This document shows positions 10,315 to 28,589 of a stretch of DNA of 32,000 nt, piece by piece. The notes beneath the pieces were generated by a model. The model ran no database searches, was not told the origin of the DNA, and saw only the letters and a list, made by a program, of their open reading frames with translations. This DNA comes from Nostoc sp. PCC 7120 = FACHB-418 (lineage in GTDB: Bacteria > Cyanobacteriota > Cyanobacteriia > Cyanobacteriales > Nostocaceae), in assembly GCF_000009705.1 (NCBI RefSeq), contig NC_003272.1, positions 3,870,001 to 3,902,000 of the forward strand. The letters are read 5' to 3'. Within the stretch, counting starts at the first letter, position 1. Each line of letters opens with the position of its first letter. The position numbers and the translations under genes are program-made.

Positions 10315-10761
10315 CTATAAAATTAATGTTTCGAGTTTTGCTTGTACTTCTTCTATTAAATCTTCTGTTACACTTTCAACAAATTTTACTTTTCTAGCTT
10401 TCCAATCTAGTGTTTTAATTTGATCTGCTAACACAACCCCTTTTGTTTTCATTCCTTCAATAAGGGGAACTTCAAACCTAAGCCCCTTTGCGTTAGTAGT
10501 TATAGGACAAGCTAAAACTAAAGAAGCCATTTGATTGTACTTAATTGGAGATATAACAAGAACAGGGCGATAGCCAGTTTGCTCACGCCCTTGTTGTTGT
10601 AGCTCGTTATTTAGTGTTATGGCAATATCATCAAATGACATTCCAGAATTACGAAGGGTAAATACACGCTGAATTGATTCAGCCGTGAACTGTTGTGCAG
10701 AGCCAAACTCTAATTTAACAATGTCTCCTCTATTGGGAAAGTAAGGCGGCTTCACTACCAA
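10315..10761 (-). CDS. mazF: MazF/PemK-family type II toxin endoribonuclease with an internal insertion
   Basis: RGDIV..EF ... RPVLVISP ... CPITT ... GVVLADQIKTLDW matches the MazF/PemK fold order. The start is either TTG 10761 or GTG 10755, which overlaps the antitoxin stop (TAGTG). Confidence 0.75.
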   Translation of the reverse strand: MVVKPPYFPNRGDIVKLEFGSAQQFTAESIQRVFTLRNSGMSFDDIAITLNNELQQQGREQTGYRPVLVISPIKYNQMASLVLACPITTNAKGLRFEVPLIEGMKTKGVVLADQIKTLDWKARKVKFVESVTEDLIEEVQAKLETLIL

Positions 10762-10997
10762 GCTTCATTCCCCACAGCGTCACCTGTTTCAAATTCTGGA
10801 TGAAAATTATCAGGGGTCATCCCTTCAAGTAACTCATCAAGCGTATATTTTTTTCGTCTCTTTGGTGTAATTACTATGCTATTACCTTCAACACTAAAAT
10901 TGATATCTGTTCCTTCAGTTACGTGTGCTTGTTCAGCTATCGATCTAGGAATCCTAACCGCTAAACTGTTTCCCCATTTAGCTACAACTGTTGTCAT
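10755..10997 (-). CDS. mazE: AbrB/MazE/SpoVT-family antitoxin
   Basis: VVAKWGNSLAVRIPRSIAEQ is a SpoVT-AbrB swapped-hairpin motif. ATG at 10997 is preceded by GGGAGA, and the stop overlaps the toxin start. Confidence 0.78.
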   Translation of the reverse strand: MTTVVAKWGNSLAVRIPRSIAEQAHVTEGTDINFSVEGNSIVITPKRRKKYTLDELLEGMTPDNFHPEFETGDAVGNEAW

Positions 10998-11195
10998 AAT
11001 TTTCTCCCAACGCTGCATTAGCGATTTATACGCCCGATTTTGTGTTTCCGCCGCAAAATCTTTTCAATAATCGTTTGACTGATGTATATACTTTGAAGAT
11101 ACATCAGACAAACAAGGGGTGTCAACACCCTTCAACCCCTGGTAAGCCGGAAGCAAACCATTTTTTCCATAAGCAATGCTACTAACTATAATTTT

Positions 11196-18468: not shown

Positions 18469-18927
18469 CTATTTTGCGCCCCACTCTAAAACGATGCTGC
18501 GGGTAAAATCGATGCGTTGTGAGAAGTCTAAGGCTTTAACTGTATCAACAAAGCTTTTGGTTTCTAGGGGTAGTTCATAGTCTGATGGGACTTGAATAAT
18601 CTCACCGCTTTCCATACCGCGTGCGAGTCTGAGCCACAATTCTATTTTGGGGCTAGAGTGCAAGGCATTGTAGGTGCGGCTAATATCTGTGTTTCCACCA
18701 CTAGCGATATCCCGTTGGGCTTGTAATTGTTGTTCTTGTGGTAAGGCTCGAATCTGATCGTATAAAGCCGCAGCTGTATCTTGTACGGAAGGTTGATTTG
18801 TTTCTGAATCTAACTGTTCCTTGAGGTCAAGATAGCCATACCACAGTAGAGCTAGTTGGGTGTCAATATCAAAGCCACGAAACTGTTCTATGGCTCTTTG
18901 GGTGCGTTCATCGGTAGCGTAAGTCAT
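18469..18927 (-). CDS. helical carotenoid protein (orange carotenoid protein N-terminal domain homologue)
   Basis: MTYATDERTQRAIEQFRGFDIDTQLALLWYGYLDL resembles the OCP NTD (..DQLALIWFAYLEM..). ATG 18927 with GGAG upstream is preferred over the longer track ORF. Confidence 0.8.
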   Translation of the reverse strand: MTYATDERTQRAIEQFRGFDIDTQLALLWYGYLDLKEQLDSETNQPSVQDTAAALYDQIRALPQEQQLQAQRDIASGGNTDISRTYNALHSSPKIELWLRLARGMESGEIIQVPSDYELPLETKSFVDTVKALDFSQRIDFTRSIVLEWGAK

Positions 18928-19274
18928 GGTAATCTCCGGTTCCTGTGTATTGAATTTTACTGAGGTTACTAAACTCACCTCACTCACAAAATCCTATAAA
19001 TTGAGCCAGGGAGATTAACCCTACTGAAGGTAGAAATGAGTACCTTAGCTTATGACAGATGTAAATATGACATTTGCAGTCCAGAAAAACACCAGTCGTG
19101 GCAAGTGCAATTTTAATTTTTTGCCACCAGAAATCAGGCTTCAAAGTACGTATCTAGCACTTAAAATATTTTATACGTTTATCCCTCTGTTTGCTTAGAA
19201 TAATTTGTGTACTTTATTTTTATACATGAAATATAAGCATATATATTTTACGACTACTGATATATCAATAAATA

Positions 19275-19382: not shown

Positions 19383-19973
19383 ATGATTATTACTGTAGCG
19401 GCGTTTAAAGGCGGTGTCGGTAAATCTACGACTGCGTTGCACTTAGCCACTTACCTCCAGATGAAAGCAGACACACTGTTGGTGGATGGTGATTTAAACC
19501 GCAGTGCGTTAGATTGGTCAAATCGAGGTTCTTTACCTTTTAAGGTGGCTGATGAGAAGCAGGCGGTCGGTTTAGCGGGGCTTTATGAGCATATAGTGAT
19601 CGACACGCCAGCCCGTCCAGACACAGAAGAACTCAAAACTTTGGCTAAAGGATGCGATTTATTAGTTATACCAACAACACCAGATGCGATCGCTTTAGCT
19701 GCGACTTTCAATCTAGTTAATTTACTTAGTAAATTTAAAATTAAGTATAAAATATTGCTTAATATTGTACCTCCAAATCCCAATAAAACCGGGGAGGAAG
19801 CGAGAACAACTCTTTTAAATGCGGAACTGCCTGTATTTAAGTCAGGAATTCGTCGCTTGGCGGTGTTCCAACGTGCTGCTTTAGAAGGGGTTCCAGTCAA
19901 CGCGGTTAAAGACCCTTATGCCCAAATTGCTTGGCGATGCTACGCCGAGGTGGGAAAGGAAATATTAGACTGA
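19383..19973 (+). CDS. parA: ParA-family (small type Ib-like) partition ATPase
   Basis: 196 aa with the deviant Walker A motif KGGVGKST and ParA/Soj-like layout. Confidence 0.85.
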   Translation: MIITVAAFKGGVGKSTTALHLATYLQMKADTLLVDGDLNRSALDWSNRGSLPFKVADEKQAVGLAGLYEHIVIDTPARPDTEELKTLAKGCDLLVIPTTPDAIALAATFNLVNLLSKFKIKYKILLNIVPPNPNKTGEEARTTLLNAELPVFKSGIRRLAVFQRAALEGVPVNAVKDPYAQIAWRCYAEVGKEILD

Positions 19974-20008
19974 TTCGTAATTTATAATTCTTAATTGGGT
20001 AGGATGCC

Positions 20009-20296
20009 TTGAATAATCAGAAAAAAACCAGCCGTTTCGATGATTTAATTGATGCTGCCCGCAGCCGTCAACAGCGAGACCAGCCACAGTCAACGCCAGA
20101 TAAACCGACTTCCCAAAGCAAAAGCACTGACCCAGCTTATACCCGGACAACTATTTATTTACCAAAGCAAGTACATCGCCAACTTAAAGCAGCAGCAGCG
20201 TCCCAAGAGCGACAAATGAGCGATATTGTGACGGAACTTATTGAACAGTGGCTAGAGAAGAAGCAGGGGGAAGAACTAATGACCGATGACCAATAA
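20009..20296 (+). CDS. ribbon-helix-helix (ParG/CopG-like) DNA-binding protein, probable ParA partner
   Basis: 95 aa with a TTG start. It has a disordered basic N-terminus and then TIYLPKQVHRQLKAAAASQERQMSDIVTELIEQWL, an RHH pattern. Confidence 0.6.
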   Translation: MNNQKKTSRFDDLIDAARSRQQRDQPQSTPDKPTSQSKSTDPAYTRTTIYLPKQVHRQLKAAAASQERQMSDIVTELIEQWLEKKQGEELMTDDQ

Positions 20297-20830
20297 CTAA
20301 AGTACAATATCTTCGCCTTGTTCGGTGAAGCGCACTTCTTTAATCTTCCATTGAGAATTACTGGTTAAGGTTTTACGGAGGCTGCCAAATAAGGCAAATT
20401 GTTCGCAGCTAGAGAGTGAGACGAATTGTCGCTTTGATTGGGGTGAGAGTCTTAAATCAACTGTGGCAATGCCGTTCCTGACTCTGACACGATAACCGGA
20501 TAGGTTAAAGTCGGCGGTATCTTGTTCCTTAATGATTTTACCCACAGCGTTAGTCACAGATTGGGTGGCAGGTACAGTAACTTTTTGTGGCACAAATTCT
20601 TGACATTGGACATCACTAGTATAAAGAGTAACGTTTACTGTTTTACCAGAGACGGCTTTAGGTTCAATGTTATTGGTTTTGGCTCGTAGTTGAGCCATGC
20701 TTGGTGCAGGTTTTGGGGATATTGTATTTGTTGTGTTGCTGGGGTTTGAACTACAACTGCTGAGGCTAGCGATCGCCACCATCATAAATGGTAAAAGACA
20801 CCTGTTGTTCATTTTCATCATCTTGTTCAT
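20297..20830 (-). CDS. GerMN-domain lipoprotein
   Basis: From ATG 20830: MNKMMKMNNRCLLPFMMVAIASLSSC gives a signal peptide plus lipobox (LSSC). The C-terminal region resembles GerMN (spore-germination-like) domains. Confidence 0.6.
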   Translation of the reverse strand: MNKMMKMNNRCLLPFMMVAIASLSSCSSNPSNTTNTISPKPAPSMAQLRAKTNNIEPKAVSGKTVNVTLYTSDVQCQEFVPQKVTVPATQSVTNAVGKIIKEQDTADFNLSGYRVRVRNGIATVDLRLSPQSKRQFVSLSSCEQFALFGSLRKTLTSNSQWKIKEVRFTEQGEDIVL

Positions 20831-21061
20831 ATTTCTTTCTCTTGACTCCAGTATGGCTGCCAGGGATTCCGTATAAATTTGCGATAAATTGTGAAAGAAA
20901 GCTTGGCTTTGTGGGTCATTATTCAACAAAATTATTGGTTTATTCCCCTTGATGGCTAAGGCAATTTCGGAAGCAGTACCAGCACCCACACCACAGGCAA
21001 TTATCACATCACTAGAAAGCACATTAAACTTTACTTCTTGGCTGTTATTAGCTATCTTCAA
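20831..21061 (-). pseudogene. C-terminal fragment of a TIGR00725/LOG-like (Rossmann, lysine-decarboxylase-like) gene, N-terminal half missing
   Basis: FNVLSSDVIIACGVGAGTASEIALAIKGNKPIILL matches only the second half of that family. In-frame sequence upstream of about 21045 has no similarity. The fragment runs in frame into the lipoprotein ORF. Confidence 0.5.
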
Positions 21062-21087: not shown

Positions 21088-22542
21088 ATGCCTGCAATTA
21101 CTTTTGATCTACGTACATCTGAGTGGGATGGTACACCAATTGACAAGTGGGAACCGTCTAAATGGAAGCAATGGAAAGCTAAACAAACTGATGAATTGGC
21201 CAAGGTAGAACGGGAATACCTGCGAATTAAACACTCCGTACAGCAGGCAAATGCAGCTTTAAGTCTAGATAGAATCAAGATTAAATTGAAACTTAGCAGC
21301 CCTAAAAGTATTGCTTTACAAGGTACTTTTCCTTGTAGACCTGGGGATGTAGGTAAACAAGGTAGTCCTAATAAGCAATATACCATTTCTTGCGGATTTC
21401 CTGCTAATGATGCCGGGGTAAAAATGGCTGTTTTGAAAGCACGAGAATTGGATTTATCGTTAATTACAAAACAATTCCAATGGACACCGGAGTTACTGGG
21501 TAAACAGGCACAAAAGATAGAATTACCAACTCAGAAGAATTCTGGAAAACTCATTGGTGAACTAATTCAAGAATATGAGCGTGAATTTTGGAAAACTCAC
21601 GAGCAAAATAGACGAGGGATTCGGACTTGGGAAACTCATTATATGAGGCATTTAAAAAAACTGCCTCAAGATTTACCAATGTCTGCTCAAGCATTAGAAA
21701 TAGCCTTAGAGAAAACTAAGCCGAATACATCAGCGAGGTTTTTTATGGTATGGCAACTAAAGAAGTTTTGTGAGTTTTGTGGAATTGATGATTTTAAAAC
21801 AATTTATGCCTATGCGACTCCTAAACCTCATCCGGCTATTCGCAAAGTTCCATCGGATGAAGAAGTTATCCAAGGATTTAACAAAATTGGTCTGCCTCTA
21901 TCAGTCTACACGAGTAGAGAGAACACTACACAGCCGGAACAATGGCAATGGGCATACGGGATGCTGGCTACCTATGGCTTAAGACCCCATGAATTATTTG
22001 CTGTGGATATAGAAGCTTTTCTGGAGCCAAAAAATACTTTTCATTTAGTAAGTTTAAATCCTAGTTTGACAGAAGGGACTAAAACCGGGGAACGGAGTTG
22101 TGGAATTCCCCCATTACATCCTCATTGGGTGGATTTATTCAAGTTAAAGAATATTAGATTTCCCTATAACGAAGGTAAATTGAATAATAAAACTGCCAAA
22201 CTGTATATCAAATTTAGAAATGCAGATATCGGTTTTAGACCTTATGATTTACGTCATGCTTATGCCATACGAGGCCATCGTTTACGAGTGCCAATAAAGA
22301 CTATGGCAGATTATATGGGACATACAGTACAAGAACATACTAAAAGTTATCAAAGATGGATGAATGAAGATACTAATTTAGAGATTTATAAGGAGGTGGT
22401 GATTCACAGACAAGGTACTAGTAAAGAAGCAATGAAAGAAAGAATCAAGGAATTGGAAGCTGAGAACTTGGCTCTCAAAGCTGAAAATGCTACACTTAGG
22501 GGTTTATTAGTTCAGCATCAATTGGGTGAATTGCTAAGTTAA
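21088..22542 (+). CDS. XisA/XisC-family site-specific tyrosine recombinase
   Basis: 484 aa. Blocks LQGTFPCRPGD..NKQY, WQWAYGMLATYGLRPHELF, KTGER..PLHP.W, RPYDLRHAYAIRGH and GHTVQEHTKSYQRW parallel, from my recollection of XisA (not a computed alignment), the heterocyst excisases. It also has a C-terminal coiled coil like XisA. Confidence 0.8.
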   Translation: MPAITFDLRTSEWDGTPIDKWEPSKWKQWKAKQTDELAKVEREYLRIKHSVQQANAALSLDRIKIKLKLSSPKSIALQGTFPCRPGDVGKQGSPNKQYTISCGFPANDAGVKMAVLKARELDLSLITKQFQWTPELLGKQAQKIELPTQKNSGKLIGELIQEYEREFWKTHEQNRRGIRTWETHYMRHLKKLPQDLPMSAQALEIALEKTKPNTSARFFMVWQLKKFCEFCGIDDFKTIYAYATPKPHPAIRKVPSDEEVIQGFNKIGLPLSVYTSRENTTQPEQWQWAYGMLATYGLRPHELFAVDIEAFLEPKNTFHLVSLNPSLTEGTKTGERSCGIPPLHPHWVDLFKLKNIRFPYNEGKLNNKTAKLYIKFRNADIGFRPYDLRHAYAIRGHRLRVPIKTMADYMGHTVQEHTKSYQRWMNEDTNLEIYKEVVIHRQGTSKEAMKERIKELEAENLALKAENATLRGLLVQHQLGELLS

Positions 22543-22625: not shown

Positions 22626-25586
22626 ATGCTGAAGTTAACTTCAAATTTGTCGCTGGTAAGTAGTATACCTATGACTGACAATCTCGTGACTATAGATAAA
22701 AATACTTATGATTCTCTTCAAGAAGAACTCATAGGACTACGCCAGGTAGTAGCAAAGACTTTAAAACCAGAGTCATTTATTGAGTATATACCTGCGGCGA
22801 TCGCTATTTTCGACAGAGAGATGCGCTACTTGCTGGCTAGTCGGCGCTGGCGAGAGGACTATAACTTAGGTGATGAGAATATCGTTGGTCGTTTCCATCA
22901 TCATGTTTGTCCAGAAATCACTTTGGGTTGGCAAAACAGATATGAGCGTTGTTTGGCGGGAAATACAGAGAAATCTGAAGAGGAAACTCTCATCCGTCGG
23001 GATGGGACTATTGATTGGGTGAAATGGGAAATAAATTCTTGGTATGAAGTATCAGGTGAGGTGGGTGGTTTAGCTGTTGTCTCTGAGGTAATTACCGCAC
23101 GTAAACAATCAGAAATGGCTTTAGCTGATAGTGAAAGACGTTTAAGAGAGACGGAAGCACGGTTACAGCGCCTAGCCGATAATCTGCCAGGGATGCTTTA
23201 TGAATTTTGCCTTAAACCTGATGGCACGATGACTTTCCCTTATGTTTCTTCTGGGTGCCTAGAACTGATAGAATGCAGTCCCCAAGAGTTACAGGATGAT
23301 GCCTCGCTCACTTTTGCCAGTACTTATCCTGAGGATATTATAGGGCTGCAAGAGGCGATCGCTAACTCTGCTAAAACTCTGCAAAACTTTGAACATGAGT
23401 GGCGTATTATCACTTCTTCAGGTCAGCTAAAATGGGTCAAAGGAGCCTCCCGACCGGAACGTAAGCCAGGAGGTGAAATCACTTGGTATGGTTATCTATT
23501 AGATGTAAGCGAACAGCAAGCCGCACTTCGTGAACGCAAACAAGCAGACCAACAACTGCAACAGCAAGCACAATTATTACAAAGTATCTGGGAAGGCGTA
23601 GATTACGGTATCTTTGTTTTGGATGTTTTGGATGATGAGGCAGAGTTTCGTTACGTTCAAATCAATCCTGCCATGTACCGAATTAGTCCTGTACCTCTTG
23701 AATCTTTCATCGGTAAGACAACGGCGGAAGCACTACCACCCGAAATTGCCAGCTTATATCGCCAACGCTATCAACAATGTATCCAGTCGAAAAAGAGCCT
23801 ATTCTTTGAGGATGATTTCTTAGTTAATGACAAAGAAACTTGGTGGCTCATTAATATTACACCCCTTGGCGATAGCAATTCACGAATTTCACAACTCATA
23901 GTGACAGCGACGGAAATTACAGAACGCAAACAAGCTGAACAAGAACGACAATTGTTTGTCTCTCTGATTGAAAATAGCAGTGACTTTATTGGTTTTGCGA
24001 CTTTAGCAGGAAAACCATTATTTCTGAATGAAGCTGGACTCAAGTTAGTTGGTCTTGATAGTTTGGACGCTTTGAAGAATCTCCACATTATGGATTTCTT
24101 CTTTCCAGAAGATCAACAATATATGGATAAACACGTTATGCGTGTGGTGAATGAGCGTGGTTTATGGCAGGGTGAATATCGTTTCCGTGACCATCAAACT
24201 AACGAAGCAATACCTGTGGACTTTAATATGTTCACTGTCAAAAATTCTGAAACTGGTAAGCCTTTGTGTTTAGCAACGGTTACTCGTGATATTCGGGAAC
24301 GTAAAAAAGTAGAAGCATTACTGCAAGAACAAGAGCAATTTTTGCGTAATATTTATGAGGGTGTTGATCAAATTATCTTTGTGGTTGATGTTTTAGAAAA
24401 CTTGGATTTTTGTTATACAGGTTGGAACTCAACAGCAGAAAAATATACAGGAATTAGTCGAAATGATGCTATTGGTAAAGCACCTGAGGATATTTTTGGC
24501 AGTATTGAAGGTGTAGTAGTGCGTCAACGATACAAGAACTGTGTAGAGGCTGGTGTTAGCATTTCTTTTGAAGAGTGTCTAACTGTCAACAATCAAGAAA
24601 CTTGGTGGTTAACTAAAATTAATCCCCTCAAGAATAGCTCAGGTAGAATTTATTGCTTGGTTGGGACAACTTTGGATATTACACAGCGTAAACAGGTAGA
24701 AATTCAGTTGCAACAACAAGCCGAAAATTTAGAAAACACTCTGCGTGAATTACAGCTTACTCAAACTCAACTTATCCATAGTGAGAAAATGTCTTCCATT
24801 GGAAATATGGTTGCAGGTGTAGCTCATGAAATCAATAATCCAGTTAACTTTATTCATGGTAATTTGATTCCAGCCAGTGAATATGCTCAAGACTTGTTAC
24901 AGCTAGTAGAACTCTATAGACTCCACTTTCCCTACCCGCCAGAAGAAATTCAGGAACTCATTATAGATATTGACTTTGATTTCCTCAAGGAGGACTTGGT
25001 TAAGCTGCTGCAATCTATGCGTATAGGAACCCAACGCATTCGAGAAATTGTCTTATCACTCCGCAATTTTTCCCGCCTTGATGAAGCTGAATTTAAGCAA
25101 GTAGATATTCATGAAGGTATCGATAGTACTCTCATGATTTTACAAAATCGTCTGAAAGCCAAGTCAGACCATCCAGAAATTTTAGTTGTTAAAGATTATG
25201 GCGATTTACCTTTAATTGATTGTTATCCTGGTCAATTAAATCAGGTATTTATGAACCTTATAAGTAATGCTATTGATGCTTTAGATGAGTCAGTTATCGG
25301 TGGTCAGTTGTCAGTTGCTACACCCACAATTTGTATTCGTAGCGAAATGTTTAATAATAATTTGGTACGAATTACTATATCAGATAATGGTGTAGGGATT
25401 CCTCCAGAAATATTATCGAAACTGTTTGACCCATTTTTTACTACTAAGTCTGTGGGTAAGGGAACTGGCTTAGGTTTATCTATTAGTTATCAAATTGTTG
25501 TGGATAGACACAATGGCAAATTATCTTGTAATTCAACACCTGGACAAGGAGCAGAATTCGTCATCGAGATTCCTATTCATCAGTGA
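22626..25586 (+). CDS. multi-PAS sensor histidine kinase
   Basis: 986 aa. At least four PAS/PAC-like repeats are separated by coiled-coil linkers ([24 protein letters not shown]). Phospho-acceptor region [10 protein letters not shown] and HATPase_c motifs [15 protein letters not shown] and GTGLGLSIS. Confidence 0.9.
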
Positions 25587-26041
25587 ATTGTGTTGATTGC
25601 TTTACCAAACTATTTGTAAACTCAAAATAAACCCTGGTAATATATCTTCCCCAGATAATTGTGTTGGGTATGCTAATATTTCTACGGGGTTGTGGGGATG
25701 TGCCATGATATTTGATGATAACAAATCCGATTTGGGAAAATATATTTGATTGTTTGTATTGTTGGGGTGTGTCAACCATATTGTGGTGGTTGAATTATAT
25801 TTTTGGCGTAACCATATTGGGGTGGTGTGCCATGTATTGGATATCAACAACCCTAATTGGGGAAATTTTATTGCGGTGGGATATTTTTGTTGAGTCGGAC
25901 AAGTGTTCGGTTTTGCAACCTACCAACCTATCCAACCCGGTTTTATATTCGGAGGTCGTCACCTTCCTCGCTGGGACAGGTCTGGACTCCCTAATGTGCG
26001 CTCGATAAATTCCCACTTACCGACTCTGACTTTGGGGCGTA

Positions 26042-26170
26042 CTCACAGAATAGCCACCGCGACAACACGAAAACCAACATTGTTGTTCCGATTCGCGCGC
26101 GCGTTTCTGTTGCGATTAGCACAGCGACAGTTCCTGGCATTGTTGTTCCACGAACCGCCACGCAGCAGCT
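26042..26170 (-). repeat. DGR template repeat (TR), non-coding copy
   Basis: 129-nt gapless match to 26359-26487. The sense strand reads ..TGG AAC AAC AAT GCC AGG AAC TGT CGC TGT GCT AAT CGC AAC AGA AAC GCG CGC GCG AAT CGG AAC AAC AAT GTT.. with no upstream ORF. 13 of the 15 mismatches to the gene copy are at adenines of this copy. Confidence 0.75.
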
Positions 26171-26358
26171 AACGTTAACCTAATCCCATGCTCAGATTCT
26201 CAATTAATTGAGAAATCTGATTGTATATAGTGTATATTGGTTAGTAGGCAGAAATAGCAAATTTAAAAAAAAGATCGTTCCGCTTCGCTACACTAACAAA
26301 GTGTAAAGATTAAGAAGTGTAAAGGGGAAAAGGGCAAGAGAGAAAAGGGAAAGGAATC

Positions 26359-26487
26359 CTCACAGAATAGCCACCGCGACAACACGAAAACCAACATTGA
26401 AGAGCCGATACGCGCGCGCGTGCATGTCGCGATAAGCACAGCGACAGCTCCTGGCATGGCTGTGCCACGAACCGCCACGCACCAGCT
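26359..26487 (-). repeat. DGR variable repeat (VR) at the 3' end of the caspase/FGE-sulfatase gene
   Basis: Counterpart of the TR. Codons CAC AGC CAT .. AGC .. TAT .. GAC ATG CAC .. TAT .. CTC TTC replace the TR AAC/AAT/AGA codons. The last 41 nt, including the stop codon, are identical to the TR. Confidence 0.75.
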
Positions 26488-28192
26488 TTATGTTATTATT
26501 TTTACTAGTAAGCAACGCACTTCCATCTGTTGGCGCACCTTGGTAATTATCATTATATATATCTTCGCACCATTCCCATACATTACCACACATATCGTAT
26601 AAACCGAAAGAGTTCGGCGGAAATATTCCTACATTGGTTGTTTCTCCACGATATTTACCTTTGGGTGCAGCACCGTAGGGAAATTCACCGTTGTAGTTAA
26701 CTAAATCTGTGGTGATGGTTTCGCCAAAATAAAAGGGCGTGGTTGTCCCCGCACGACAAGCATATTCCCATTCTGCCTCGCTGGGTAATCGGTAGGTTCT
26801 TCCTGTCTTCTGGCTCAATTTCTGACAAAACTCTACCGCATCATTCCAACTCACTTGTTCTACAGGTCTTTTCTCACCTTTGAAGTAGGAAGGATTATTT
26901 TTATTGCCTATAATCTTTTGAAGAATGTTGCCACCCATAACTGCTTGATACTGTGCTTGGGTAACTGCATATTTCCCCATGAAGAAGCCGGGAACTGTCA
27001 CCTGACGCTGGGGACTTTCCCTATCAAATCTTTCCGCCTCGCTTTCCGGTGAACCCATTGTAAATGTTCCCCCTGGTATCTGCACCATTTCCAAGGTGAC
27101 ACCATTCCCTAAGTCTTCTGCAAAATATTTTGCTGTCCGGTTTTGGCGGTTGGTGATTTTCCCTTGTGCGTTTACCGTCACCACTTCAAATGAAAAGGTC
27201 TCTAAGAGATTTTTTTCAGGTGTAGATACTCCCTTAGGAGGATCATCAGTTTGTCCTTCTTGTTTTACTAGGGTTTTACCACGCAAAAGGACAATTCTCT
27301 TAATTGCCTCGATTGCTTTCGTAGTCTGCGTTGAATCAGCAGTTAAAACCCGCATCCATAATTGTTCTGCCAAATCCCAATTTCTGTTTACTTCTGCTTC
27401 GTAAGCATCTTCTCTAAGGGTAGCAATATCGGCTGGGGTTGCATATCGAGGTACAAGTATTAAATGAGATTTAGTTACAGGCTCGGCAATAATATAAGGT
27501 GTTTGTTTGCCTTTACTGTGGGAGCTAACAATTTCCGAGACACGACGTTGTAGATACTGATTCAAGCTTGCAGCTGTGGTGTATCCATCTCGAAACCCTT
27601 CTAATAATGCAGTAGTAAAAGCACCTTGTTGTAATGCTTCAATTTCATAAGAATATTCCTGCGGACTACAGGAAAAAATACTAATAACCCCTTTTTGACG
27701 TGCTTCTGCTGAGGTTTCTTGGCCAATACCAATATGACCACCTTTTATACCATCTATTTTGCCTTCATTGCGACAAGCATCTAAAATCAAGACAAGATTA
27801 TCAGCACCAGAGCAACGCAGGTTTTCAGTGACAAAGTTAATGGAAATGGCCGTATCTGCAATGTCCCTGGGATTACCATCTGAAGGCATGAGATAATCGC
27901 GTCCATTATGGCGCATCCCATGACCACTGAAGAAAAACCAAAAGTTATCACCCGCACCCATTGAGAGGCTTTCAAATAAAGTTAGTAACACTCGCCGTAA
28001 GTGAGTACGGGTAGGGCGGGTTGAGCTAACCCCAAAATTAGGGGAATCATCACTGAATAAAATAACTTGGTCAAACCCCGCCTCTTTAATGAGAAACTGC
28101 TGGATTAACTCTGCATCCCGCTTGGCATAGTTTAGCGGTTCCAGATAATCATACTGGTTAACGCCGATCGCGATCGCCCAATTTTTCGCCAT
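26360..28192 (-). CDS. caspase (peptidase C14) / FGE-sulfatase (SUMF1, C-type-lectin fold) fusion protein, DGR target
   Basis: 610 aa. The N-terminal caspase domain has FFFSGHG (His) and LILDACRNEG (Cys). The C-terminal formylglycine-generating-enzyme-type domain has MVQIPGGTFTMGS, RLPSEAEWEYACRAG, GNVWEWC and RGGSW...GFRVV. Confidence 0.85.
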   Translation of the reverse strand: MAKNWAIAIGVNQYDYLEPLNYAKRDAELIQQFLIKEAGFDQVILFSDDSPNFGVSSTRPTRTHLRRVLLTLFESLSMGAGDNFWFFFSGHGMRHNGRDYLMPSDGNPRDIADTAISINFVTENLRCSGADNLVLILDACRNEGKIDGIKGGHIGIGQETSAEARQKGVISIFSCSPQEYSYEIEALQQGAFTTALLEGFRDGYTTAASLNQYLQRRVSEIVSSHSKGKQTPYIIAEPVTKSHLILVPRYATPADIATLREDAYEAEVNRNWDLAEQLWMRVLTADSTQTTKAIEAIKRIVLLRGKTLVKQEGQTDDPPKGVSTPEKNLLETFSFEVVTVNAQGKITNRQNRTAKYFAEDLGNGVTLEMVQIPGGTFTMGSPESEAERFDRESPQRQVTVPGFFMGKYAVTQAQYQAVMGGNILQKIIGNKNNPSYFKGEKRPVEQVSWNDAVEFCQKLSQKTGRTYRLPSEAEWEYACRAGTTTPFYFGETITTDLVNYNGEFPYGAAPKGKYRGETTNVGIFPPNSFGLYDMCGNVWEWCEDIYNDNYQGAPTDGSALLTSKNNNIKLVRGGSWHSHARSCRCAYRDMHARAYRLFNVGFRVVAVAIL

Positions 28193-28193
28193 C

Positions 28194-28589
28194 CTACTTT
28201 GGTTCTTGTCGCCTAAATGTCAGTTTAATTGCACCTTTACCACCAGCTTTCGCGCCGTTCCCAATTAACTTGACTTCACCTTCGCCGCTAATTTCTACTG
28301 ATAACTCAATTTCTTCTAGCTGTAACCCAGGGTTGTGATTGGCTTGCTTTTCTGCACGATTAAACAAACCCCCTACCAGTTGTAGAAAGTGTGTCATGTT
28401 TTGTTCTAAGTCTTGTGCTTTGACTGGGAAAGCATCTCCGATGATTTTAGGGCTAGGTATTGTTTTGAGTATGTCTGCTCCGAAACCGCCTGTGTTACTA
28501 TTTCCGCCTTTAGCACCAACACCGTCAGGGGTAGTTTCGGGTGCTTCGCCTGTGACTATCCAAATAATGTCTGAGGTTGTGTCTGTCAT
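28194..28589 (-). CDS. small protein resembling the Trypco1 / CU044_2847 family (peptidase-co-occurring domain)
   Basis: 131 aa. The C-terminal beta-rich motif IELSVEISGEGEVKLIGNGAKAGGKGAIKLTF is typical of that family as I recall it. Its stop lies 1 nt from the caspase ATG, indicating an operon. Confidence 0.45.
   Translation of the reverse strand: MTDTTSDIIWIVTGEAPETTPDGVGAKGGNSNTGGFGADILKTIPSPKIIGDAFPVKAQDLEQNMTHFLQLVGGLFNRAEKQANHNPGLQLEEIELSVEISGEGEVKLIGNGAKAGGKGAIKLTFRRQEPK

What the first reader, a model, noticed from the sequence alone, without database searches (positions are those of the whole stretch)
25587..26358. The template repeat is orphan: no reverse transcriptase or Avd next to it
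Canonical DGR cassettes are ordered target(VR)-avd-TR-RT. Here only 188 nt separate VR and TR, with no ORF between them. Downstream of the TR there are just 455 nt before the convergent stop of the histidine kinase. The short overlapping ORFs there (25573..26016) have no RT motifs (no YxDD, no finger/palm blocks), and no RT-like or Avd-like ORF exists anywhere in the 32 kb. There are three possibilities. The TR may be serviced in trans by an RT-Avd pair elsewhere, which would be a remote TR and is unusual because it is normally VRs that are remote. The RT may have been lost recently, possibly in connection with the adjacent recombinase/kinase cassette. Or some non-canonical arrangement exists.
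Basis: partly seen in the sequence, partly recalled or inferred. Interest (0 to 1): 0.8.

Follow-up and report, generated by a model that had tools for sequence, protein, structure and literature searches.

The report
DGR template cassette without its enzyme
Next to a hypervariable caspase-lectin gene of Nostoc/Anabaena PCC 7120 lies a complete template-RNA gene of a diversity-generating retroelement with no reverse transcriptase beside it; this was already noted in print as a "remnant", but comparison with relatives suggests such enzyme-less cassettes are conserved and served by a reverse transcriptase encoded elsewhere.

Summary
VR (26359-26487) and TR (26042-26170) are a 129-nt repeat on the minus strand, 188 nt apart. 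13 of 15 mismatches lie at TR adenines. No RT or Avd is detectable in the 32 kb, in ORFs or in any reading frame.

The window is Nostoc/Anabaena sp. PCC 7120, and the target is all3226. Vallota-Eastman et al. [quoted passage not shown] They also reported two DGR RTs elsewhere in this genome.

New here:
- The TR is flanked by a conserved leader hairpin and a roughly 155-nt structured 3' RNA domain (25887-26046). A covariance model built only from RT-linked cassettes hits it at 140 bits.
- The same RT-less layout (target-VR, spacer, TR, 3' domain) recurs across Nostocales.
- Against N. parmelioides, the non-coding cassette is about 7-fold better conserved than neighbouring four-fold sites.
- In two near-identical relatives, an RT-less cassette shows fresh adenine-specific VR turnover.

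Best reading: an intact template cassette that depends on RT-Avd supplied in trans. Current activity in PCC 7120 is unproven: there are 2 non-A mismatches and the VR is identical in all assemblies. A silent relic remains a serious rival.

The parts
28194..28589 (-). Pepco-domain gene (all3227), the upstream partner of the target gene
   Evidence: Pfam PF24393 at 4.8e-31. The same Pepco + caspase-FGE pair is found in L008, L009, L011, L015, L025 and L027.
26360..28192 (-). DGR target gene all3226: an orthocaspase (Peptidase_C14) fused to an FGE-sulfatase/CLec domain, 610 aa
   Evidence: Pfam hits at 2e-31 and 6e-61. Exact match to BAB74925.1. The C-terminal tails of 120 homologues vary at exactly the TR AAY codons.
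26359..26487 (-). Variable repeat (VR): the last 42 codons plus the stop codon of all3226
   Evidence: 13 mismatches lie at TR adenines and 2 at other bases. By comparison with other TRs, both non-A changes are on the VR side.
26171..26358 (-). Spacer: a pyrimidine-rich VR 3' flank, a T8 run (26272..26265) left over from the target-gene terminator, an AT-rich stretch and the TR leader
   Evidence: Alignment with the spacers of L007, L016, L023, L025, L028, L017 and L020. The first ~50 nt also follow the VR in the RT-containing cassettes L024, L032 and L033. The GC hairpin before the T-run is degenerate in PCC 7120 and N. parmelioides.
26229..26234 (-). Candidate -10 box TACACT for a separate TR transcript (inferred, not shown)
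   Evidence: It lies in the block ATACACTA, which is identical in the six RT-less cassettes aligned. The simple sigma-70 scan found no full promoter here.
26193..26219 (-). Leader hairpin, ending 22 nt upstream of the TR
   Evidence: Predicted in the 348-nt fold, z = -4.65. The same hairpin is present, with compensatory base changes seen by eye, in L023, L024, L032 and L033.
26042..26170 (-). Template repeat (TR): non-coding, 27 adenines, preceded by an in-frame TAG
   Evidence: All AAY codons are intact. The sequence is the same as the naive gene ends of P0004 and P0005.
25887..26046 (-). Structured 3' domain of the DGR template RNA. It begins at the GTGAG that ends the TR and contains three hairpins.
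   Evidence: Covariance model R1, built only from five RT-linked cassettes, scores 139.8 bits, E = 4e-35, full length. On an 18-sequence alignment, 41 pairs were predicted, 13 with compensatory changes and 98% of cells paired; 0 of 500 shuffles reached this, and shifted-partner controls gave 32-45%. There is a weak full-length Rfam hit to RT-14: 27.8 bits, below the gathering score of 48.1.
25692..25886 (.). Lineage-specific filler with short direct repeats. In L017-type cassettes this is where avd-RT would start.
   Evidence: No homology to avd or RT or to any fetched locus. Repeats are listed. In N. parmelioides this position holds REP-like hairpins and an IS200-like Y1 transposase. In UHCC 0870 it holds a PIN toxin-antitoxin module and two Uma2 genes.
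25587..25691 (+). 3' flank of the convergent histidine kinase. It is not part of the cassette.
   Evidence: 91% identical to L030 and 82% to L008, directly after the orthologous kinase.

Best explanation
Region 25887-26487 is the complete non-coding half of a Nostocales diversity-generating retroelement (DGR), attached to its target gene all3226 but lacking avd and RT. Read on the minus strand it contains:
- the VR
- the VR 3' flank, with a weakened terminator
- a leader hairpin
- the TR
- a ~155-nt three-hairpin RNA domain, which in related cassettes lies directly 3' of the TR and next to avd-RT

Proposed mechanism, steps inferred: a roughly 330-nt RNA (leader, TR and 3' domain) is transcribed, either alone or as read-through of all3226. 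An RT-Avd complex made from a DGR locus elsewhere in the chromosome binds the flanking RNA structure. PMC7517822 reports all3497 and all5014 as such loci. The complex copies the TR with errors opposite adenines, and the cDNA replaces the VR 317 nt upstream.

Shown here: the cis parts are intact, the VR was templated by this TR, and the cassette is conserved far above neutral expectation.

Inferred: the RT acts in trans.

Not shown: that this still happens in PCC 7120. The locus may currently be quiescent.
For: 1. Adenine-specific VR/TR mismatches: 13 of 15, P = 1.2e-7. VR and TR also share lineage-specific non-A features, namely CRC rather than CRS and the ending VVAVAIL*.

2. A covariance model built only from RT-linked cassettes (L013, L017, L024, L032, L033) finds the 3' domain at 139.8 bits, full length. 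Covariation supports the fold. All five RT-linked cassettes examined carry this domain directly after their TR.

3. L033 (Nostoc sp. UHCC 0302) is the same system with the enzyme genes present: caspase-FGE, VR flank, bAvd, RT, leader, TR, 3' domain. The PCC 7120 layout is therefore that cassette minus avd-RT.

4. The RT-less layout recurs. L007 is RT-less in the roughly 720 nt held beyond its 3' domain. L016 has no RT anywhere in its 13.5 kb. L031 has none in 6.3 kb downstream. The orthologous locus L009 has none within +/-10 kb.

5. In those RT-less cassettes, VR/TR mismatches are at adenines only: L016 14/14, L023 10/10, L028 16/16. This matches the RT-linked cassettes: L017 16/16 and 17/17, L024 14/14.

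6. L031 and L025 are near-identical strains: spacer 0/194 differences, downstream 1/619. Yet they differ at 17 of 128 VR positions, 15 of them at TR adenines. A T/C polymorphism in the TR is mirrored in each strain's own VR.

7. PCC 7120 versus N. parmelioides: four-fold sites of ksgA + ispE differ at 27/252 (10.7%), and an intergenic stretch upstream of ksgA is only 74% identical. The non-coding cassette differs at 7/463 positions (1.5%); Fisher P = 8.6e-8.

8. The syntenic locus in the more distant UHCC 0870 also lacks an RT. The VRs of PCC 7120 and N. parmelioides differ at nearly every variable codon. This suggests homing continued after the RT-less state arose.

9. Literature: PCC 7120 has two DGR RTs, both marked as not degraded (PMC7517822).
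Against: 1. There are 2 non-A mismatches in PCC 7120 and 3 in N. parmelioides. Clean cassettes show none, so the last homing in these lineages is not recent.

2. In N. parmelioides the 5' part of the TR has taken over VR sequence (AACAACAAT to TTCGCCGAT), losing 5 adenines. An actively selected template should resist this.

3. Every PCC 7120-type assembly and metagenome contig carries the identical VR, and the 90% cluster contains no VR variant. These are probably all derivatives of one isolate.

4. The terminator stem in the spacer is degenerate, and no promoter was found by the consensus scan.

5. I could not fetch the two resident RT loci. Their compatibility with this RNA is therefore inferred only from the uniformity of the RT clade (72-87% identity) and its constant association with the 3' domain.

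6. The high conservation against N. parmelioides could instead reflect a recent recombinational exchange. The target gene itself is a mosaic of segments 40-100% identical.
Confidence: 0.55

Rival explanations
1. Silent relic (the published reading). A once-complete cassette lost avd-RT, the current VR was frozen, and the TR and its flanks are decaying leftovers with no present function.
For: - Vallota-Eastman et al. call it remnant homology and propose that diversification components are removed once an optimal variant is fixed.
- There are 2-3 non-A mismatches in PCC 7120 and N. parmelioides.
- The N. parmelioides TR is partly overwritten by VR sequence.
- The VR is identical in all PCC 7120-type assemblies.
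- The terminator stem is degenerate.
- Related loci have lost the TR altogether through VR x TR deletion: L009 and L015 compared with L031.
Against: - A relic that predates the PCC 7120 / N. parmelioides split should have diverged by about 10%, as four-fold sites have, or more, as other intergenic DNA has (74% identity). It differs by 1.5%.
- All 27 TR adenines, the leader hairpin and all helices of the 3' domain are intact.
- No avd or RT debris remains.
- RT-less cassettes elsewhere show fresh turnover.
Confidence: 0.3
2. Ordinary remote target. The all3226 VR is diversified from the TR of a complete DGR elsewhere (the all5014 locus, as tabulated in PMC7517822). The local TR-like copy is a non-functional duplicate.
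For: - Table S1 of PMC7517822 lists BAB74925.1 as a remote variable protein in the all5014 row.
- Homologous genes in L009 and L011 have diversified VRs with no local TR.
Against: - The VR shares lineage-specific non-A positions with the local TR.
- The paper's remote-target criterion was only >= 50% identity.
- In N. parmelioides, a whole-genome scan with the adenine-degenerate TR pattern found only the local copy.
- In L031 and L025, a TR polymorphism tracks each strain's own VR.
Confidence: 0.1
3. Not a TR at all. The A-rich copy is the displaced original 3' end of the gene, left behind by a duplication or by recombination with a paralogue.
For: - In UHCC 0870 and CENA543 the gene itself ends in the naive Asn-rich sequence.
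- In UHCC 0870 the same 3' domain follows that naive end directly.
Against: - RT-containing cassettes (L017, L024, L033) have exactly the same leader, TR and 3' domain as a non-coding unit.
- An in-frame TAG precedes the TR.
- The naive gene ends are better explained by VR x TR deletion, which is documented at orthologous loci.
Confidence: 0.03

Closest known systems
Complete Nostocales DGR cassette with the same target family (Nostoc sp. UHCC 0302, CP151099, locus L033; also L024 Desmonostoc vinosum and L017)
   Same: - Caspase-FGE target with a C-terminal VR, and the same pyrimidine-rich VR flank.
- The same leader hairpin.
- A TR encoding the same [10 protein letters not shown]... scaffold.
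- The same 3' RNA domain.
   Different: Those cassettes carry bAvd and a DGR RT, either between the VR flank and the TR leader (L033, L024) or after the 3' domain (L017). PCC 7120 has neither, and the two halves are joined into a 188-nt spacer.
Bordetella phage BPP-1 DGR (mtd-avd-TR-brt) with its TR-RT spacer RNA (Rfam RT-10)
   Same: Adenine-specific TR-to-VR transfer into a CLec-fold C-terminus. A structured RNA sits immediately 3' of the TR (Weinberg 2017, PMC5737381).
   Different: - Different gene order.
- The 3' RNA here is not RT-10. Its only Rfam resemblance is a sub-threshold match to RT-14.
- In BPP-1 the RT is in cis.
- VR and TR here are identical over their last 41 nt, so there is no IMH/IMH* distinction inside the repeat.
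Incomplete DGR loci of Thiohalocapsa PB-PSB1 (Dore et al. 2024, PMC10907252)
   Same: These are loci lacking some DGR components. The authors explicitly consider diversification in trans by an RT and/or TR encoded elsewhere. The targets are also conflict-system sensors of a multicellular bacterium.
   Different: In that study the clear trans cases were remote VRs matching another locus's TR. The TR-bearing loci with disrupted RTs had intact-RT variants in the population. Here the TR cassette has no RT in any assembly, and the same holds across species.
Dispersed copies of the DGR1 template ncRNA in Nodularia spumigena CCY9414 (Voss et al. 2013, PMC3610870)
   Same: Copies of a DGR template RNA are located away from the RT gene in a heterocystous cyanobacterium.
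   Different: Those are about 70 near-identical copies interpreted as retro-insertions into non-coding DNA. Here there is a single copy in a fixed position beside its own VR, syntenic across species.
Rfam RF02921 RT-14 RNA (RT-associated motif, Weinberg et al. 2017)
   Same: The match covers the full model (1-144) and coincides with the conserved block. It shares the three-hairpin layout and sequence islands.
   Different: 27.8 bits against a gathering score of 48.1, with E = 0.06-0.2 even in a tiny search space. This is not a member by Rfam's criterion. It is at most a distant relative.

Membership tests
Diversity-generating retroelement (DGR) | A near-repeat pair (TR/VR) whose differences fall at adenines of the TR | tested here: met
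   13 of 15 mismatches at TR adenines; P = 1.2e-7
Diversity-generating retroelement (DGR) | VR at the 3' end of a target ORF with a CLec/FGE-type fold, and a non-coding TR rich in AAY codons | tested here: met
   FGE-sulfatase domain at 6e-61, with the VR as the last 42 codons. The TR has 27 adenines and is preceded by an in-frame TAG.
Diversity-generating retroelement (DGR) | A DGR-clade reverse transcriptase in the same locus | tested here: not met
   No RVT Pfam hit in the 28 main ORFs scanned. No tblastn hit at E <= 10 with two cyanobacterial DGR RTs. None in the called genes of L001, +/-10 kb around the target.
Diversity-generating retroelement (DGR) | The accessory protein Avd in the same locus | tested here: not met
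   No bAvd or Avd hit by Pfam or by tblastn.
Diversity-generating retroelement (DGR) | A DGR RT somewhere in the same genome | not testable with these tools
   PMC7517822 reports all3497 (BAB75196) and all5014 (BAB76713), both not degraded. I could not retrieve either locus.
Diversity-generating retroelement (DGR) | Ongoing VR variation within a population or between close strains | tested here: inconclusive
   No VR variant was found among PCC 7120-type sequences, but these are probably one isolate. Close relatives of other RT-less cassettes do vary.
Cyanobacterial DGR template-RNA 3' domain (family defined here from RT-linked cassettes) | A full-length match to a covariance model built without the query, positioned directly 3' of the TR | tested here: met
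   Model R1: 139.8 bits, E = 4e-35, model positions 1-158, starting at the GTGAG that ends the TR.
Rfam RT-14 RNA (RF02921) | A score at or above the curated gathering threshold | tested here: not met
   27.8 bits against 48.1. The hit was not recovered in L007-L009 at E <= 1.
XisA/XisC-type excision element that replaced avd-RT | The recombinase-kinase block is an insertion absent from RT-less relatives, or RT fragments lie at its borders | tested here: not met
   The kinase and its 3' flank are conserved next to the target in UHCC 0870, with no recombinase gene called in the stretch fetched. There are no RT or Avd fragments.

The most novel reading that the evidence does not exclude
RT-less "satellite" template cassettes may be a regular, selected architecture in heterocystous cyanobacteria. 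In this picture, one or two RT-Avd loci per genome act as a hub. They serve several self-contained units, each made of a target, a VR, a TR RNA and a 3' domain, and each unit carries a private template for its own Pepco-caspase-lectin sensor. VR x TR recombination repeatedly converts these units into TR-less targets, or into genes ending in naive template sequence. PCC 7120 all3226 would be a genetically tractable example.
Probability: 0.4. Interest if true: 0.65.

Novelty: already known. Interest (0 to 1): 0.45.

Why it matters
If RT-less template cassettes really are used in trans, DGRs in multicellular cyanobacteria are not single-locus devices. They would be small networks in which one enzyme pair reads several dispersed template RNAs.

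That would change how DGRs are detected, because most pipelines start from the RT and look for a TR within a few kb. It would also change how many loci are counted as hypervariable.

PCC 7120 is a standard genetic model, so the question is directly testable by knockouts and amplicon sequencing.

If the cassette is instead silent, it is a dated example of how a diversified sensor becomes fixed. That is the reading already in the literature.

Tried and rejected
1. Looking for the genome's own RTs. Two protein searches used cyanobacterial DGR RTs as queries, and one cluster look-up followed. None returned the PCC 7120 proteins among the 120 listed hits, because thousands of RTs at 72-87% identity crowd the list. 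The all3497 and all5014 loci were therefore never seen.

2. Genome-collection scan with the adenine-degenerate TR pattern. It found only N. parmelioides. The source genome was not hit even at its own TR and VR, so the scan says nothing about a second TR copy in PCC 7120.

3. Locus L006, a Logan contig, joins the VR directly to the 3' domain in a PCC 7120-identical background. I rejected it as evidence for a deletion. The last 41 nt of VR and TR are identical, which is longer than the 31-mer I believe Logan's assembler uses (my own knowledge, not checked here). A de Bruijn loop collapse is therefore the likelier cause.

4. The idea that the 3' domain is a VR-side recognition site, because it follows diversified VRs in L009, L011, L012, L015, L019, L021 and L027. 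I rejected it. In RT-containing cassettes neither VR is followed by the domain (L017, L024, L033). The orthologous loci L031 (with TR) and L009/L015 (without) differ by exactly the VR-to-TR interval, which points to VR x TR deletion.

5. Rfam membership: only a sub-threshold match to RT-14.

6. The consensus promoter and terminator scan found nothing convincing upstream of the TR.

7. Expression data: supplements of two PCC 7120 transcriptome papers contain no entry for all3226, alr3225 or all3227.

8. A long-range leader / 3'-domain helix (GGGA..AGG with CCTG..TCCC) is suggested by the fold and holds by eye in most cassettes, but L023 breaks two of its pairs. The alignment was too poor there for a formal count, so I make no claim.

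9. N. parmelioides beyond the RAYT could not be fetched.

10. The table header shows they are CLec percent identities.

Full report
**1. Observation**

The repeat is real. Coordinates 26042-26170 and 26359-26487 form a 129-nt direct repeat, 88% identical. Read on the minus strand, the copy at 26359-26487 forms the last 42 codons and the stop codon of a 610-aa ORF (26360-28192). That ORF carries a Peptidase_C14 domain and an FGE-sulfatase (CLec-fold) domain.

The other copy, translated in the same frame, reads [41 protein letters not shown]. Thirteen of the 15 mismatches lie at adenines of this copy. The probability of that bias by chance is 1.2e-7. This is a textbook TR/VR pair.

No RT or Avd is present in the window:
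- Pfam scans of 28 main ORFs, chosen from the 40 of at least 80 aa, plus two small ORFs beside the TR, gave no hit.
- tblastn of two Avd and two DGR RT proteins from related cassettes gave nothing in any frame, even at E <= 10.
- Locus L001 from the same genome extends 10 kb further on the target side, and its called genes carry no RT.

**2. Source organism and what is already published**

The target protein is identical to BAB74925.1 of Nostoc/Anabaena sp. PCC 7120, which is gene all3226. Vallota-Eastman et al. 2020 (PMC7517822) state that PCC 7120 has two DGRs, with RTs all3497 and all5014. [quoted passage not shown] They read this as removal of the diversification machinery after an optimal variant was fixed.

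Their Table S1 marks both RTs as not degraded. It lists BAB74925.1 as a remote variable protein in the all5014 row. What remains open is whether the TR is dead.

**3. Anatomy**

The roughly 150 nt that follow the TR (26041 to 25891, minus strand) are conserved far beyond the surrounding genes.
- In Nostoc sp. UHCC 0870 the block is 94% identical, while ksgA and ispE are 82-83% identical and the target gene 79%.
- In N. sphaeroides it is 91% identical, and in Calothrix NIES-4101 83%.

A metagenome scan with the core of this block returned 18 more loci. On an 18-sequence alignment, RNAalifold predicts 41 pairs, 13 of them with compensatory changes. 98% of cells pair. None of 500 shuffles reaches this, and shifted-partner controls give 32-45%.

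Five loci carry bAvd and a DGR RT: L013 (duplicated as L018), L017, L024, L032 and L033. In each of them this RNA domain lies directly 3' of the TR. A covariance model built only from those five RT-linked copies hits the window once, at 25887-26046 on the minus strand. The hit is full length, at 139.8 bits and E = 4e-35.

Rfam offers only a sub-threshold, full-length resemblance to RT-14, one of the RT-associated motifs of Weinberg et al. 2017. Its sibling motif RT-10 is the TR-RT spacer RNA of phage BPP-1.

Upstream of the TR, the 188-nt spacer has a conserved order:
- a pyrimidine-rich VR flank
- a GC hairpin plus T-run, whose stem is degenerate in PCC 7120
- an AT-rich stretch containing an invariant ATACACTA
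- a leader hairpin at 26193-26219, which shows compensatory changes in other cassettes

The 348-nt stretch from leader to 3' domain folds with z = -4.65.

L033 (Nostoc sp. UHCC 0302) shows the same system with the enzyme genes in place: caspase-FGE, VR flank with terminator, bAvd, RT, leader, TR, 3' domain. The PCC 7120 locus is that cassette with avd-RT missing and nothing else missing.

**4. Comparative architectures**

Four states occur.
- **A.** Target-VR, spacer, TR, 3' domain, with no RT in the DNA fetched. Examples: PCC 7120; N. parmelioides (L007); L016, with no RT in 13.5 kb; L031, with none in 6.3 kb downstream; and L023, L025 and L028, which have short flanks.
- **B.** A diversified VR fused directly to the 3' domain, with no TR. 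Examples: L009 and L011, both complete genomes, and L012, L015, L019, L021 and L027.
- **C.** The gene ends in the naive template sequence, followed by the 3' domain. This is seen in UHCC 0870 at the syntenic locus. The CENA543 homologue P0004 has the same naive tail, but its flank was not examined.
- **D.** RT-linked cassettes.

L031 (state A) and L009/L015 (state B) are orthologous by downstream synteny. They differ by the VR-to-TR interval. States B and C are therefore best explained by recombination between VR and TR. This recombination also explains the N. parmelioides TR, whose first three variable codons now carry that strain's VR sequence.

**5. Is an RT-less cassette used?**

Family-level evidence says yes.
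- VR/TR mismatches are at adenines only in the RT-less cassettes L016 (14/14), L023 (10/10) and L028 (16/16). The RT-linked L017 and L024 show the same.
- Members of 90%-identity protein clusters differ essentially only at the VR codons.
- L031 and L025 come from different samples and are almost identical: spacer 0/194 differences, 3' domain 1/159, downstream 1/619. Yet they differ at 17 of 128 VR positions, 15 of them at TR adenines. A T/C difference in their TRs is mirrored in each strain's own VR. Information has therefore recently flowed from a local TR with no RT within reach.

**6. Status in PCC 7120**

In favour of function:
- All 27 TR adenines, the leader hairpin and the 3' domain are intact.
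- Against N. parmelioides, the non-coding cassette differs at 7 of 463 positions, not counting the conversion tract.
- Four-fold sites of the adjacent ksgA and ispE differ at 27 of 252, and an intergenic stretch upstream of ksgA is only 74% identical.
- The two species' VRs differ at almost every variable codon.
- The more distant UHCC 0870 also lacks an RT at this locus. This suggests homing continued after the RT-less state arose.

Against current activity:
- There are two non-A mismatches here and three in N. parmelioides.
- The N. parmelioides TR has lost adenines.
- The VR is identical in all PCC 7120-type assemblies, although these are probably one isolate.
- The terminator stem is degenerate, and no promoter has been demonstrated.

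A recent recombinational exchange could also mimic the conservation, because the target gene itself is a mosaic.

**7.

- Trans service is the best supported.
- Loss linked to the recombinase/kinase block is not supported. The kinase and its 3' flank are the ancestral neighbour, and no enzyme-gene debris remains.
- An RT just outside the window is excluded within 10 kb on the target side, and within 26 kb on the other side.

**8. Comparison and novelty**

This is a DGR cassette by every cis criterion, and it fails the two protein criteria locally. The locus-level observation is in print (2020). Incomplete DGR loci and possible trans action "by an RT and/or TR encoded elsewhere" have been discussed for Thiohalocapsa (PMC10907252). 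Dispersed template-RNA copies are known from Nodularia (PMC3610870). I therefore rate the thing itself as already known.

In the literature I could search, three points are not stated:
- The orphan keeps a complete, structured template-RNA gene.
- The RT-less layout recurs across Nostocales and is under constraint.
- At least one such cassette shows fresh turnover.

**9. Limits**

- I never saw the two resident RT loci, so RNA-enzyme compatibility is inferred rather than tested.
- The single TR polymorphism mirrored in the VR is one site.
- Nothing here measures activity in PCC 7120.

Noticed in passing
window 21088-22542 (+), with 19383-21061: A 484-aa XisA/XisC-type tyrosine recombinase (PF27551/PF27132 in the precomputed hits) sits next to the kinase. 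Beside it are a SLOG-family gene, an RHH gene and a ParA-like gene. This could be a heterocyst-type excision element or another mobile module. Orthologues at >= 90% identity occur in many Nostocaceae.
   Followed up: partly
window 26360-28192 compared with L007 1196-2998: Between PCC 7120 and N. parmelioides the target gene is a mosaic. Some segments are about 100% identical (27057-27176), others only 40-65%. The flanking housekeeping genes are about 96% identical. This suggests recombination with paralogues or very uneven selection.
   Followed up: partly
L007 878-1005 (N. parmelioides TR): The first three variable codons of the TR read TTCGCCGAT, identical to that strain's VR, instead of AACAACAAT. 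This looks like a VR-to-TR gene conversion that removed five template adenines.
   Followed up: yes
L008 11709-11836 (Nostoc sp. UHCC 0870); protein P0004 (Nostoc sp. CENA543): These caspase-FGE genes end in the fully naive, Asn-rich template sequence. In L008 the 3' RNA domain follows directly, so the gene appears fused to its TR. The CENA543 flank was not examined.
   Followed up: partly
L006 5749-6329 (Logan SRR29636225): This contig is identical to PCC 7120, but the VR is joined directly to the 3' domain and the spacer and TR are missing. Collapse of a repeat loop during assembly is the likely cause, though a real deletion variant is not excluded.
   Followed up: partly
window 25692-25886: A roughly 200-nt stretch unique to PCC 7120 lies between the RNA domain and the kinase 3' flank. 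It contains short direct repeats (TTGTGGGGATGTGCCATG three times, AACCATATTGKGGTGGT twice). Its origin is unknown.
   Followed up: partly
L017 6008-7254: The RT of this otherwise complete cassette is split into two tblastn pieces (6062-6832 and 6985-7254). It is possibly a frameshifted or interrupted RT, yet both of its VRs show adenine-only mismatches.
   Followed up: no
L026 (oriented) about 3925-3960: The 3' RNA domain is interrupted after hairpin 2 by an insertion that starts with TTCGGAA repeats. The model hit is split into two pieces.
   Followed up: no
L007 60-570 (-) and 600-720: An IS200-like Y1 (REP-associated) transposase and REP-like hairpins (GAGAAACCCGGTTTCT) lie directly after the RNA domain in N. 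parmelioides. N. sphaeroides has a faint Y1_Tnp gene and 105-nt tandem repeats at the equivalent place.
   Followed up: no
window 10315-11018 (-); 2678-5864 (-); 18469-18987 (-): Three unrelated features: a MazE/MazF toxin-antitoxin pair, two tandem Ser/Thr protein kinases, and a helical carotenoid protein (homologue of the OCP N-terminal domain). None is related to the finding.
   Followed up: no
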